From positions 82,770,001-82,834,000 of the forward strand of contig OZ024746.1 in NCBI GenBank assembly GCA_964016885.1: a stretch of DNA of 64,000 nucleotides, written 5' to 3'. The translations under genes were made by a program, and so were the position numbers. This document shows positions 36,280-64,000 of the stretch, one piece after another. This DNA comes from Eledone cirrhosa. Its lineage: Eukaryota. The stretch's first letter is position 1; each line of letters starts with the position of its first letter. A model generated the notes under the pieces. That model had not been told where the DNA came from, did not search any database, and worked only from the letters and a program-made list of their open reading frames with translations.

Positions 36280-36668
36280 GTCAGGCAACTTCCTCTCTGG
36301 CCATAGTCTGGTCTACTTCTTCCGATATCACTTCGGAAGAAGGATAAGAATGGAGAGAGAGGTGCTTGGCCACAGGCAGTTTTATGAAAGGTGGGTGATA
36401 GTGGCGAGAATGGCTCGTGTAAATGGGCCTTCTCTGTATACCATCCTGTAGGTAAAGAAGTAAAGGAGAGGGGAGCACCTTCTCCATGTGCTCCCCGGGC
36501 AAAGGATTGCACACTTTTTCGGGGGTGTGTGCAACCCCCATCACGTCCCCTCCCTTTTGAGGTTATTTTCGATTATTTTCATGTTACACCCTTTTTACTC
36601 GATTATATGTAAACTCCCCCTTTGTATTTGTCCCTTCTTTTTATGCCTTTATGGTAAATAAAGAAATC
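36280..36668 (+). mobile_element. 5'-truncated copy of a related Tx1-type element (ORF2 C-terminus + 3'UTR) inserted in (CTAT)n
   Basis: Translation SGNFLSGHSLVYFFRYHFGRRIRMEREVLGHRQFYERWVIVARMARVNGPSLYTIL* (stop 36449-36451) aligns with the ORF2 end STYLFGDALIDFFKFHLKRKIRVEKEVLSSQHFVERWVREARMARVNGPTLSIYL*. The 3' end is tggtaAATAAAgaaatc. (TCTA)n lies on both sides. Confidence 0.93.
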
Positions 36669-37728
36669 TATCTATCTATCTATCTATCTATCTATCTATC
36701 TATCTATCTATCTATCTATCTATCTATCTATCTATCTATCTATCTATCTATCTATCTATCTATCTATCTATCTAGCTAGCTAGATAGATAGATAGATTTT
36801 TAAAAAGAAATTTCGTTCGTTGTCAAAGAATTATATTTTTGTCCCCCAAACACAGCTCACCAATAGCCATAATAAATCAATATATATATATATATGATAT
36901 ATAATGTGGAAAGAGATACAATGCAAAATGGACTGTAAGATGAGGTAACGAAAAAGTAAGTTACCTGGTAATCTTTGTTTTGCTTTTTGTTGTTGCTGTT
37001 CTTTCTTCTGGTCTAGGACTATACCCTCCCCAATAATTATATTTTTCTCCCCAAACTACCAAAACACACATCTATTTGGATATGCGCTACAATTTATGTA
37101 CATGTTATGTTTATCGCATATCGAAGTTTACTGACCATTTTAAAGAGCAAAGACCTAAACTAATCACTACAACAAAAATTGACCAAATTTGCACCCCCAT
37201 CCCACCCCAATTCAGAAGTGCTTCCACCACCCCTGAGACACGTATATACAACCGTATAAGCATGCACGTATCTATCACATATATTTCTGCATATGTATTT
37301 GCGTGTCTGATATGTTGGGTAATCGACAGTTTTTCCAAAAATAAAAAAATAAAATAATAAATAAATAAATAAACAAATAAACAAATGAATAGAAACGAAG
37401 AATTGATTTCCTGTCAAGATAGTTACACACGTCGATTTCAGTCCATTTAAGCGGTCCTTTGAATTTTAAAGTTTTAGCTGTCAAGACGTCAGTTAATATT
37501 CATCTGAATGTAAAACACAAAATATTTGTCAAATAGAATCTAAACGAGAGAAAGGGCAATTAAATGAGTAGTCAATATGTGTTCACATAAATCGTTATAT
37601 TGTACATACATACGTAGATACATACATACATACATACGTAGATACATACATACATACATACATACGTACATACGTACATACATAGATACATACATTCATG
37701 CATACATTCGTACATCCATCCATACATG

Positions 37729-38138
37729 GTGGCTGCCAACTCGTTTTCGAGTACGGCCACTACTTTATATCCATGTAGGAGAACCCCTACCGATGCGCTG
37801 AACGAGTGTGACTTTTTAGTCCAGCCAGCGATTTGAAAACTCTGGTACAAACACTACACTTTTGACAATTATTGACACATAGAGCTGGGCCCATGGTACC
37901 ACGTGACGACAAGTGCAGAGAGATCTCCAGATATAAAGCAATGCCTGTGCCGTGAAGCTTTTATAGTGAGCAAAGGCACTGCACAAAGCCAGTCCCACTC
38001 TCTTAACCAAGATGATATTTACGAAAAAGAAGAACAAGTCAACATCATTGGATACCATCAGAGTTGCAGGTGTTATATCAGAGTTTTCCTTCTCCTAGAA
38101 TTCTGCCTTGACAAAGGCTAATGGGTCATCTCTCCCGG
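37729..38138 (-). mobile_element. Near-identical inverted copy of the 39.9-kb RTE-like element, flanked by (CATA)n
   Basis: Reverse complement of 39883-40292 with only scattered substitutions; the ORF track gives near-identical peptides (SAERSPDIKQCLCREAF...). Confidence 0.85.
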
Positions 38139-60654: not shown

Positions 60655-60689
60655 GTTTAAAATAGAGTGGAAAAGATGGGAAAGACCAC

Positions 60690-62789
60690 TTACCGTATTT
60701 TTGGTAGAGGAGGGATGGTTTTTACATCCCTTTTCACTTGATCGTCTGGTGAAGGGACCGTTGAATCGTCCCTTCGGCTGGTCGTCGGCTCTTCTAAGAG
60801 AATGTCTGAATATACTCTTCGATTAATGGTTCCTCCTAGGTCCCTGAAATCACCAACTGCGTTGGGGAATTTCGTTTTAATGTTTGTGTATTGTTTCTGT
60901 GCTATTTTTAGCAGTCTTATGTTAGTTGGCGTTTTGATTGGTGCTGGTATTATGTAGTCCTGTTGTGAAATGTCTGTGTGTTCAATTATGTAAGTCATTA
61001 GTTTCTTGTTGTGTGTGTTTATTGCCGTGCATTTGTTTTTCTGGGGGTGGGGTGTGGTTCTGCTATTTTCTTGTCGTTGTTGCTGGGTGTGTGTGTTTTG
61101 TTGTTGTGTTTGCGATGTTGGTGCTTGTGGTGGTGGTGTTGAAGGTGTTGTTGGCGGTGGGGTTGTCGCCGGTGGTGATGGTGGTGCTGGTGTGGGTGGT
61201 GATGGTGTTGGTGGTGTTGCTGCTGTGGGTCTCTTTGCAGTAGACTTTACCCTTTTCTCATTTCTTTCCTCCCTTTTCAAAGGCGACGATGCGCTGCTTC
61301 TGCGTTTGTGCCTTCTTGAGACCTTTTGCCATCCCTCTCCCACCTCACACTCCATGTCTGATTCTGTAAGGTCGGGGAGGGGTACCAGCTCCACTCTTTC
61401 ACTTGTTGTTGTTGGTGATGTTTGCACTGGAGTCTCTGTTGCAGCTGCATTTGGTATTGCTGTTGTTGTTGTTAATATTTCCACTGCTGCTGCTGTCTTT
61501 GATTTCCGTGGAGTGGGTATGGGTGCCACGGACCTATCGTTCCTGGTTGCCGCTTGTCCTGTTGCTGGTAGCCGTGGAACCGGATTCGGGAGGAGGGGGG
61601 TTTTCTCCTTTCTCAGGGTCTTCTCGTTGCAGAAGGCCCTGAGGTGAGTCTTCGATCCACAGCGAAAGCATTTCGGGCGTTTGCCCTCAACACTTATGGG
61701 CAGTTGAGTGCCGTTATCGAAGTCTATCACATCCGGGATAGCTTCGATGCACTCCTGGTTGGTTTGTATTAGCATCTCAATGGAGGAGCCGACCCAATCT
61801 TCTCTTACTTTTTTCTGTACTTGCAGTACAGTTGTTTTGTCCTCGATTCCGACGAGGACAGACGCGGCCAGCCAAGAAGGGGTCATTCCGGGGGGGACGT
61901 GGGTCAGTTTGACCCTCACAATTTTTTGCCCGCAGTAGGAGGGCACCAACACCATTTCCTCGCTCCTTAGGGTCACTACTGATTGGGCCTTTGCCTCCTG
62001 GGGTGTGGCAAAAAGTACGTCTACGGTGGCGTATTTTTTGCCTCGGGTGATGTGCGTTTTCCTCTGCCACACAGACCCCAAGGCTTTTTGTATTTGGGCC
62101 TCTGTGGCTCTTTCCACCCTACGGGATTTTGTACTTACTGTACGGTACGTGACCGTACAGTGCTCTTGGGTTTCGAAAAAATTTTTCGCTGCCTTGCAGA
62201 TTGCTCGGTGTCCGTTCTTTGTCACCATCTTCTTCGCTTCCTCTAATTCCTCATTTGTTATGAGGATTGTTTCCAGGTTTTTCGCAATACCTGCAAATGA
62301 GATTGGTTTTTCTCTGCTGTTGTTGTTGTCGTCAGAGCTGCTGGTACTTTTGTTGTTGCTGCAGGTACTACGACTACTGCCTCCGCCGCTGTTGCTGTGG
62401 TTGTTGTTGGTGTTGCTGCTGCTAATGGTGTTGTTGTTTATGCTGCTGGTGATGCTGTTGCGGCTGCTACTGTTGTTTTCATTGTCACTGTTGCTGTTGT
62501 TATTACGGCTGCTACTGCTATTATTCCTGACGTCAGACGAATGAACTGGGTTTTCGTATTTCCCGCACACCTGTTTCGTCGCTGTCGTCGTCGTCGTGGA
62601 GAAACCTTGCACGCTTTGCACGAGACTTTTCTTTTCTTTCGTCGCTTGCGAAAGAGAAGGTAGGGAGAGAGACACATTTAAAGAAGGGAGGGAGAGAGAC
62701 AATCTTCTCTCTCCTGTAGTGATGATTGAGGAAGAAGAAGACGGAATGAGTGGGAGTGACGTATGAAATTTTTTTTTTTTGGTAGCCAT
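60690..62789 (-). CDS. ORF1: gag-like nucleic-acid-binding protein with one CCHC zinc knuckle (~699 aa from the first ATG)
   Basis: Directly upstream of ORF2 on the same strand. CFRCGSKTHLRAFC fits CX2CX4HX4C (61629-61670). It has an N/S-rich N-terminal tract and a P/T-rich linker. The first ATG is at 62789 (MATKKKK); the track's start at 62822 is a TTG. Confidence 0.9.
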   Translation of the reverse strand: MATKKKKFHTSLPLIPSSSSSIITTGERRLSLSLPSLNVSLSLPSLSQATKEKKSLVQSVQGFSTTTTTATKQVCGKYENPVHSSDVRNNSSSSRNNNSNSDNENNSSSRNSITSSINNNTISSSNTNNNHSNSGGGSSRSTCSNNKSTSSSDDNNNSREKPISFAGIAKNLETILITNEELEEAKKMVTKNGHRAICKAAKNFFETQEHCTVTYRTVSTKSRRVERATEAQIQKALGSVWQRKTHITRGKKYATVDVLFATPQEAKAQSVVTLRSEEMVLVPSYCGQKIVRVKLTHVPPGMTPSWLAASVLVGIEDKTTVLQVQKKVREDWVGSSIEMLIQTNQECIEAIPDVIDFDNGTQLPISVEGKRPKCFRCGSKTHLRAFCNEKTLRKEKTPLLPNPVPRLPATGQAATRNDRSVAPIPTPRKSKTAAAVEILTTTTAIPNAAATETPVQTSPTTTSERVELVPLPDLTESDMECEVGEGWQKVSRRHKRRSSASSPLKREERNEKRVKSTAKRPTAATPPTPSPPTPAPPSPPATTPPPTTPSTPPPQAPTSQTQQQNTHTQQQRQENSRTTPHPQKNKCTAINTHNKKLMTYIIEHTDISQQDYIIPAPIKTPTNIRLLKIAQKQYTNIKTKFPNAVGDFRDLGGTINRRVYSDILLEEPTTSRRDDSTVPSPDDQVKRDVKTIPPLPKIR

Positions 62790-64000
62790 GTTTTTTTGTT
62801 TAAAATGAAATTTTGGGTACAAAACCCCAATAACTGGCTATTTAACCCCGAAGGGCCAAATAACGGACAGAAAGACCCCTCTCACGAGGAGGAGGGTGTC
62901 TTTATCAACAATTTGGTTCAAGTTTTAAACAATTTACAATTGTTTTAACGGTTAAAAATTACTATACCTTACAGAGCCGAGCCTCCGTCAACCATGGCAT
63001 TCAATAATAATAATAATAATAATAATAATAATAAAAATAATAATAAAGATAATGATAGTAATAACAATAGTAATAATAATAATAAAAATAATGATAATAG
63101 GATAATAAAAACATATAACATTTATTACACAGGCAAATTTAATATGTGCATATTTTTAATTTACTGATACAAACTATAAACGAAACATAGTCTTTTTGTT
63201 TTGTTTTGTTCTCACCAACATATTTTCAATGGTTAATTAGATTTCAAATTTTCCTAATGCATACGTTTTCCAATATGTTTATTAATAAGGTTTAAAATAT
63301 CTCTTATTTAGCGTCTCCTATTTAAAAACAAATCCTCAGTACATACAAAGTTCATATCTAAACTTAATCAAAATGTTTCTTTGAAATTAGTTTTCGAATG
63401 CATTCAATCCAAGCAAACAAATATTTTTGTTTTCACTTTATTATTTGCGCATAATCTGCAATATACATACGTTTATATATACATGTGTTGTATATATATA
63501 TATATATATATATATATATATATATATATATATATATATATATATATATATATATATATATATATATATATATGAATATATATATATATATAAATATATA
63601 TATATATACATATATATTTATATGGATATATATATATATAAATATATATATATATATATATACACACACATATATATATATAAATATATATATATAAATA
63701 TATATGTATATACATATATATGTATATATATATATATATATATAGAGATATATATATATGTGTATATATGCATGTATATATATATATATATAATATACAT
63801 ACACACACACACACATACATACACACATATATATATATATATATAAAATATATATATAAATCTATGTATATATATAAATATATATATATGTATGTGTTTG
63901 TATATATATATATGTATATATATATATATATGGGATGAAATATAAAGTCGAATATAACGAGAGAAAGTTGAACATATACATTATTAGTATAGATGTACAT

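What the first reader, a model, noticed from the sequence alone, without database searches (positions are those of the whole stretch)
36280..63002. Two sister Tx1-type retrotransposons share a 3' terminus but sit in different microsatellites: (ATT)n versus (CTAT)n
Seen: the full-length element (56972-63002, minus) has (AAT)n on both sides and ends tggttAATAAAgaaatc|attattatt. The truncated relative (36280-36668, plus) has (CTAT)n on both sides and ends tggtaAATAAAgaaatc|tatctatc. The last 17 nt match at 16 positions, the rest of the 3'UTR is not alignable by eye, and the ORF2 C-termini are clearly homologous but diverged. Neither has a poly(A) tail. Known: Tx1-clade families such as Kibi and Koshi are sequence-specific for microsatellites through their APE endonuclease. 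Inference: this genome carries a radiation of Tx1 families whose endonucleases recognise different simple repeats, a natural series of target-site variants that may be undescribed in this lineage.
Basis: partly seen in the sequence, partly recalled or inferred. Interest (0 to 1): 0.8.

Follow-up and report, generated by a model that had tools for sequence, protein, structure and literature searches.

The report
Octopod LINE sisters target different microsatellites
Two related, recently active jumping-gene families in what is probably an octopus genome sit in different simple repeats (ATT versus TATC) across thousands of copies, likely because their cutting enzymes recognise different short motifs; this habit is known from fish and crocodilian relatives, but with other repeats.

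Summary
Family A (window 56972-63002, intact) has 3582 exact termini, 3306 followed by ATTATT. Family B (36280-36668, truncated) has 857, 834 followed by TAT(C/A)T. Background is 0.12% and 1.9%. The repeats are pre-existing targets, not just tails. B copies in impure sites carry target-site duplications, mostly 16-22 bp, starting at TAT(C/A)T. All 61 full-length A 5' junctions have at least six ATT units. Truncated copies are enriched too (A 6 of 18, B 8 of 14), but not uniformly. Nine related families sort into two target classes, and the TATC families form one clade (99/100). The endonuclease hairpin loop differs between the classes. No third target was found, so 'a series of simple repeats' shrinks to one switch, probably ATT to TATC. 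A conserved 3' hairpin explains the shared terminus, and a 183-bp SINE with a similar tail lands at ATTATT. It works like Kibi/Koshi. Tx1 membership is likely but was not tested against named references. Verdict: new members of a known kind, with two targets I did not find described for Tx1 and a tidy testable switch.

The parts
56972..63002 (-). Family A element, full length, 6031 bp, both ORFs open
   Evidence: at least 40 copies identical over each end
60690..62789 (-). ORF1, 699 aa, RRM-like region plus one CCHC knuckle
   Evidence: Atlas look-alikes carry zf-CCHC and ZCCHC3 RNA-binding domains, scores 0.88-0.93; no Pfam hit over cut-off
61629..61670 (-). CX2CX4HX4C zinc knuckle in ORF1
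   Evidence: read from the translation; the B counterpart hits PF00098 only weakly, E 0.3
57235..60654 (-). ORF2, 1139 aa: APE endonuclease, reverse transcriptase, zf-RVT
   Evidence: Pfam PF03372, PF00078, PF13966 all over cut-off; best solved relative is human L1 ORF2p, E 3e-52
60058..60090 (-). Codons of the endonuclease hairpin loop (ORF2 T189-S199), aligned to L1 betaB6-betaB5
   Evidence: alignment to PDB 2v0r, 2v0s and 8sp5; class-specific sequence
56985..56995 (-). Predicted 3-bp RNA hairpin with 5-nt loop just before AATAAAGAAATC
63003..63032 (-). (ATT)10 on the 5' side of A; inferred to include the target-site duplication
   Evidence: floor of six units in 61 of 61 junctions
56936..56971 (-). 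(ATT)12 on the 3' side of A
36280..36668 (+). Family B element, 5'-truncated: end of ORF2 (stop at 36451) and 3' UTR
36208..36279 (+). (TATC)18 on the 5' side of B
36669..36772 (+). (TATC)26 on the 3' side of B
1649..1831 (-). 183-bp SINE with a tail like the LINE tails, between two copies of a 17-bp duplication that begins ATTATT (1632-1648 and 1832-1848); probable passenger of the ATT families

Best explanation
A and B are young members of one lineage of L1/Tx1-type LINE retrotransposons that insert at different short motifs, ATTATT for A and TAT(C/A)T for B, most likely because their APE endonucleases nick different sequences. Shown: family-specific flanks on both sides, duplications of mostly 16-22 bp at B sites, head-to-tail arrays, one TATC clade, and a class-specific endonuclease loop. 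Inferred steps: (1) ORF2 binds its RNA by a small 3' hairpin and the AAUAAAGAAAUC end, which is why unrelated 3' UTRs share a terminus and need no poly(A). (2) The endonuclease nicks the bottom strand opposite the first base of the motif and reverse transcription starts there. (3) A second nick about 18-21 nt downstream makes the duplication, so each insertion rebuilds the target on both sides and later copies pile up in tandem. (4) One change of specificity, probably from ATT to TATC, founded the B-like families.
For: Genome-wide 3' flanks: 3306 of 3582 and 834 of 857 against background 0.12% and 1.9%. Sample taken by position, not length: 50 A termini (first 54 listed, four tandem members skipped) and 45 B termini (first 48 listed, three skipped). 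All 23 full-length A copies and all 6 located A-prime 5' ends lie in ATT; 26 of 28 full-length B copies have TATC repeats 5', and the other two have 19-20 bp duplications starting TAT. No A copy had a TATC 5' flank and no B copy an ATT 5' flank. Informative B duplications: 13 rows (12 events, 11-22 bp, 11 of them 16-22 bp), plus 21 bp at L356 and L324. 61 of 61 distinct full-length A 5' junctions have at least six ATT units, 23 of 38 non-tandem ones only 6-9; background 0.047%. Truncated copies: 6 of 18 A and 8 of 14 B pass the strict 5' test against 0.3% and 0.2% (binomial p 1e-11 and 8e-19). 14 of 50 A termini run through ATT into the opposite-strand tail of another LINE type, 0 of 45 B termini do. 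No cluster of two or more members mixes the motifs among 225 termini. TATC families are one clade, 99/100. Loop: TNR(I/M)GSSRS in the three ATT families, xN(R/H)SG(Q/T)SRS in four TATC families with intact APE; this loop reads target DNA in L1 (PMC1950540, passages).
Against: No informative long duplication was found for an ATT-family LINE (best 11 bp at L226), so the A duplication length is inferred. Some A copies with impure 3' flanks (L280, L290, L305, L311, L314) have pure ATT 5' flanks, which a 18-21 bp duplication does not predict. Five of 16 A-prime 5' ends have fewer than six pure units, though all lie in ATT tracts. Ten of 18 truncated A copies lack ATT on the 5' side by any reading: five abut another LINE, one has CTT, four are unexplained. 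Class-diagnostic residues are not significantly concentrated in APE (7 of 235 versus 2 of 291 in RT, p 0.085), and with a single switch any loop difference is confounded with ancestry. PMC1950540 also reports that grafting the Tx1L loop did not transfer its specificity. No empty allele was seen in four runs laid on A.
Confidence: 0.75

Rival explanations
1. Targeting is real but is set mainly by RNA-DNA pairing: transcripts read through into the flanking repeat, and that tail anneals to the nicked strand, so each family keeps landing in the repeat it came from while the endonuclease is only loosely AT-specific.
For: No poly(A); the 3' junction is in fixed phase with the repeat; full-length A always joins as ATT|GAATG (61 of 61), as expected if repeat units ride on the RNA; at B sites with a readable duplication the target bases before it are usually TC, matching the element's last bases (read).
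Against: B copies that landed in (TA)n or (TC)n have not founded TA or TC families in the sample; the two motifs stay fixed across families 25-35% apart in ORF2; B 5' junctions carry variable extra bases; the SINE lands at ATTAT in non-repeat DNA.
Confidence: 0.2
2. The repeats are slippage-made tails of the elements, insertion is random, and 5' repeats come from tandem read-through or later expansion.
For: Ten of 18 truncated A copies and three to six of 14 truncated B copies lack the repeat on the 5' side; many full-length copies sit behind another copy (14 of 30).
Against: B duplications begin at the first base after the element and contain non-repeat sequence, leaving no room for a tail; non-tandem full-length A copies all have ATT 5' (38 of 38); for the truncated copies checked the 5' flank was not found again behind the 3' repeat, as a tail-plus-random-site model needs.
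Confidence: 0.04

Closest known systems
Kibi ((TC)n) and Koshi ((TTC)n), teleost Tx1-clade LINEs (PMC4494074 and PMC3812793, passages; the original 2004 paper seen only as a citation)
   Same: APE-type LINEs inserted specifically into microsatellites; sister families with different repeat units
   Different: Targets here are (ATT)n and (TATC)n, not pyrimidine tracts; host is probably an octopod; both classes are young and high-copy in one genome; relationship to Kibi/Koshi untested
Crocodilian Tx1 families in (TTCC)n or (TTTC)n (PMC4494074, section 15 read)
   Same: Several related families in one genome group preferring tetranucleotide repeats
   Different: Different motifs; specificity here is much tighter (92% and 97% of termini) than that paper's 20% criterion; tri- versus tetranucleotide switch
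Xenopus Tx1L and its endonuclease (PMC1950540, passages)
   Same: Sequence-specific APE endonuclease model; same hairpin loop position; a duplication of about 20 bp (Tx1L's 23 bp is recalled, not from a call)
   Different: Tx1L targets the DNA transposon Tx1D; its loop is longer (RDGH tip) than the loops here
Dong (R4 clade) LINEs in (TAA)n (PMC3812793, passage; octopus Dong-R4 in PMC9115989, PMC13282606, PMC8967140, passages)
   Same: Same microsatellite as family A, read on the other strand; Dong-like LINEs share tracts with A in this genome
   Different: The Dong-like neighbours have a C-terminal nuclease motif (recalled as restriction-like) and insert in the opposite orientation; A reaches the target with an N-terminal APE domain

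Membership tests
L1/Tx1 group of LINEs | Two ORFs; ORF2 with N-terminal APE endonuclease, RT and C-terminal zinc-binding motif | tested here: met
   human L1 ORF2p is the best solved relative, far above R2
L1/Tx1 group of LINEs | ORF1 with RNA-binding domains and a CCHC knuckle (feature recalled) | tested here: inconclusive
   knuckle read in both A and B; Atlas leads at 0.88-0.93; no Pfam hit over cut-off
Tx1 clade | RT groups with Xenopus Tx1, Keno, Kibi, Koshi, Dewa rather than with L1 | not testable with these tools
   no hit named Tx1 came back; nearest named vertebrate hits are turtle and fish proteins at 37-41%; no reference sequences could be obtained
Tx1 clade | Target-sequence preference | tested here: met
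Tx1 clade | Target-site duplication of roughly fixed length and no poly(A) tail (feature recalled) | tested here: met
   B: mostly 16-22 bp; no poly(A) in 60 termini; for A the length is only inferred
Kibi/Koshi lineage | Target is (TC)n, (TTC)n, (TTCC)n or (TTTC)n | tested here: not met
   targets are ATT and TATC; (TC)n and (CTT)n flanks are rare exceptions
Target-specific APE LINEs | Isolated endonuclease nicks the target specifically | not testable with these tools
   needs an in vitro assay
Dong/R4 (considered for element A, rejected) | Single ORF with C-terminal restriction-like nuclease | tested here: not met
   A has two ORFs and an N-terminal APE domain

The most novel reading that the evidence does not exclude
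An octopod Tx1-type lineage reprogrammed its endonuclease once, from ATT to TATC, through a few residues in and near the hairpin loop while keeping the RNA-recognition terminus; the ATT branch also drives an abundant SINE and converged with Dong on the same repeat, making (ATT)n tracts a shared landing pad for three kinds of retroelement and giving a pair of intact, recently active enzymes with which to map the specificity code.
Probability: 0.4. Interest if true: 0.65.

Novelty: new member of a known kind. Interest (0 to 1): 0.48.

Why it matters
How APE endonucleases come to read simple repeats is described as poorly understood (PMC3812793, passage), and loop grafts between distant enzymes did not transfer specificity (PMC1950540). 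Here two classes only about a third apart in ORF2, each with intact copies and several families, differ cleanly in target, so swaps are small and interpretable. It also matters for cephalopod genomics: thousands of insertions interrupt and duplicate ATT and TATC microsatellites, and a major SINE may have found its partner LINE. The principle itself, microsatellite-targeting Tx1 families, is already known.

Tried and rejected
Third target class: not found. A pattern forcing C or G after the terminus (187 hits, 30 loci read) gave only ATT- or TATC-type families with a mutated first base. A pattern built to exclude both repeats (580 hits, control 35; first 100 rows read by eye, 30 loci examined, 10 without an ORF2 hit) showed no recurring new motif. 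The zf-RVT search (44,774 candidates, 150 scored, 30 loci read) returned A-like families. A distant query, P0015, returned 26 copies of TATC family c9 and 4 A-like copies in 30 loci. These searches favour the known terminus or top scores, so distant families remain possible. Direction of the switch: the RT tree nests TATC inside ATT families (97/99), the whole-ORF2 tree leaves the base open and an AU test does not reject a single ATT clade (p 0.247). The first DNA tree on 450 nt (44 rows, eight single-member clusters left out as too short or spurious) was distorted by broken rows and is superseded. No RNA holder was listed, which says nothing on expression. The Dong-like protein found no solved relative and only a weak zf-RVT hit, so its label rests on recalled motifs and its (AAT)n tail. 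SINE tail similarity by plain alignment is modest and does not single out ATT families (8-168 of 1000 shuffles as high; Dong-like tail 746). Christensen 2000 was not held. Look-ups of earlier findings by place and by sequence were empty.
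Full report
Observation. The window holds a 6031-bp element on the minus strand at 56972-63002 (family A) with open ORF1 and ORF2. ORF2 has APE endonuclease, RT and zf-RVT domains. It has 10 ATT units 5' and 12 units 3'. The 389-bp piece at 36280-36668 (family B) is the end of a 5.8-kb element found whole in L062 and lies between TATC tracts. 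ORF2 is 70.4% identical in DNA between A and B, and only the last 23 nt of the 3' UTRs align; the last 17 nt match at 16.

Host and age. The genome is 3.0 Gb. The nearest named protein is from the octopod Argonauta hians, 73% identical over the RT region, so the host is probably an octopod; this is an inference. Both families are young: the 40 best hits to each 3' end were 100% identical, and head-to-tail arrays are common.

3' flanks. Exact terminus patterns give whole-genome counts: 3582 for A and 857 for B, with zero for the reversed controls. Adding the flank keeps 3306 for ATTATT (92%) and 834 for TAT(C/A)T (97%). In 20 background regions of 10 kb the same words follow 0.12% and 1.9% of positions.

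Tail or target. I took termini in order of position: 50 of the first 54 A and 45 of the first 48 B, skipping members of tandem arrays, and located their 5' junctions. For A: 23 full-length copies, all in ATT; 6 copies of a variant with another 5' half (A-prime), all in ATT; 3 whose 5' end was not reached; 18 truncated. Of the 18, six pass a strict test (three ATT units within 25 nt; background 0.3%), two more have ATT or ACT by eye, one has CTT, five abut an opposite-strand LINE directly, and four have no repeat. For B: 30 full-length (28 called directly, 26 of them passing the strict test; two more located), one not reached, 14 truncated, of which eight pass the strict test (background 0.2%), three have related TA, TC or single TATC flanks and three have none. 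No cross-over of motifs on the 5' side was seen.

Duplications. Where B landed in an impure site the first bases after the element are repeated just before it: 13 rows (12 events; 11-22 bp, all but one 16-22 bp), plus 21 bp at L356 and L324. They start at TAT(C/A)T and continue into non-repeat sequence, so the flank is target DNA and the recognised unit can be short. For A no such long case was found (11 bp at L226). But 61 of 61 distinct full-length 5' junctions carry at least six pure ATT units, and 23 of the 38 non-tandem ones carry only six to nine, which fits a duplication of about 18-21 bp inside ATT tracts. Against this, five copies with an impure 3' flank have a pure 5' flank, and five of 16 A-prime ends have fewer than six pure units; later slippage or repeat units carried on the RNA could explain either.

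Shared tracts. Fourteen of 50 A termini run through ATT into the opposite-strand 3' end of one of two other LINE families; none of 45 B termini do; background is four such ends in 200 kb. Those LINEs end in (AAT)n and show motifs I recall as Dong/R4-like; database support is weak. Dong is reported to target TAA repeats (PMC3812793, passage) and is active in octopus (PMC13282606, first third read plus term search). The five truncated A copies that abut such LINEs head to head are best read as junction deletions in shared tracts.

How wide is the radiation. Among 225 termini in all loci then held, ten clusters had two or more members: three ATT (83 of 89, 11 of 13, 10 of 10), six TATC (65 of 70, 9 of 10, 5 of 5, 4 of 4, 1 of 2, 2 of 2) and one whose two members came from a search designed to exclude both motifs; none mixed the motifs. 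Family c9 is 69% and 74% identical to A and B in ORF2; 21 of 26 further copies are followed by TATC and five by AAT. Four searches for a third target found none, within the limits given under Tried and rejected. In protein trees the TATC families form one clade at 99/100. The RT tree places it beside ATT family c3 (97/99), suggesting ATT is ancestral, but an AU test on whole ORF2 does not reject one ATT clade (p 0.247).

Candidate determinants. Alignment to the L1 loop-graft structures places the DNA-reading hairpin at ORF2 189-199 (PMC1950540, passages). Its sequence is TNR(I/M)GSSRS in all ATT families and xN(R/H)SG(Q/T)SRS in the four TATC families with an intact domain; the degraded c8 copy reads differently. 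Seven of 235 APE positions and two of 291 RT positions are class-diagnostic (p 0.085). With one switch this is a lead, not proof, and the same paper found that a grafted loop alone did not transfer Tx1L specificity.

The shared terminus. Twelve LINE tails and one SINE tail align over a 3-bp stem with a 5-nt loop just before AATAAA; all 39 cells of the three pairs are paired, with one double change in A and one in the SINE. The evidence is thin, since related sequences can beat the shuffles, but it offers a reason why otherwise unalignable UTRs end alike.

A passenger. A 183-bp SINE with tRNA-like A and B boxes (consensus recalled) lies at 1649-1831 in the window between 17-bp duplications beginning ATTATT. 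Of 38 rows found in the held loci, 32 are followed by ATTAT, and nine have clear duplications of 10-19 bp in non-repeat DNA. The loci were chosen near A and B, so the count is biased. Tail alignment is modest and does not single out the ATT families; the partnership is inferred from target, duplication length and hairpin.

Comparison. It works like Kibi, Koshi and the crocodilian (TTCC)n/(TTTC)n families (PMC4494074, passages and section 15). Architecture places it in the L1/Tx1 group; placement within Tx1 could not be tested. L1-Tx1 families are already counted in octopus (13 recently active, PMC13282606; PMC8967140, passages), but the word 'target' does not occur in the first of these. Searches found no description of ATT- or TATC-targeting Tx1 families or of Tx1 targeting in cephalopods. 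Repbase, Dfam, subscription papers and supplements were not seen and may hold such notes.

Verdict. Real, strongly supported as target-specific insertion, and a new member of a known kind. The value lies in a clean two-state switch among intact, young enzymes and in the likely SINE partner. Interest 0.48.

Noticed in passing
window 1649-1831 (minus); L164, L260, L302, L340, L347: Abundant 183-bp SINE that inserts at ATTAT(T) with 10-19 bp duplications and keeps the LINE-type 3' hairpin with a compensatory change; probably mobilised by the ATT families.
   Followed up: partly
L238, L281, L301, L306, L310, L254: Two Dong/R4-like LINE families share (ATT/AAT)n tracts with family A in the opposite orientation; several truncated copies meet them head to head with no repeat between.
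   Followed up: partly
L282, L289, L292, L294, L307, L308: Variant A-prime: same ORF2 and 3' end as A but a different 5' UTR and diverged ORF1, with the switch point at the same place near the end of ORF1; looks like a recombinant subfamily.
   Followed up: partly
L064-L066, L069-L073; L061-L062, L115-L117: Head-to-tail arrays of five or more identical copies whose spacers repeat the same impurity, suggesting array growth by unequal recombination as well as by re-insertion.
   Followed up: no
L097-L126 versus L067-L096: Full-length B copies have one to three variable bases at the 5' junction, whereas full-length A copies always join in phase as ATT then GAATG; the two families may finish integration differently.
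   Followed up: partly
runs X1-X11: Eleven runs under eight organism codes hold half or more of A's sampled words, and X5 holds a near full-length copy at about 99%; close relatives, mixed samples or transfer cannot be told apart here.
   Followed up: no
L358, L359, L364, L368, L377: Family c9 has a looser target: five of 26 copies are followed by AAT instead of TAT.
   Followed up: no
P0049: An Octopus sinensis protein annotated as tectonic-3-like carries a short stretch 64% identical to ORF2, probably an element fragment inside a gene model.
   Followed up: no
window 36773-36800: The TATC tract after B turns through CTAG into its reverse complement (GATA)n, forming a short inverted repeat.
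   Followed up: no
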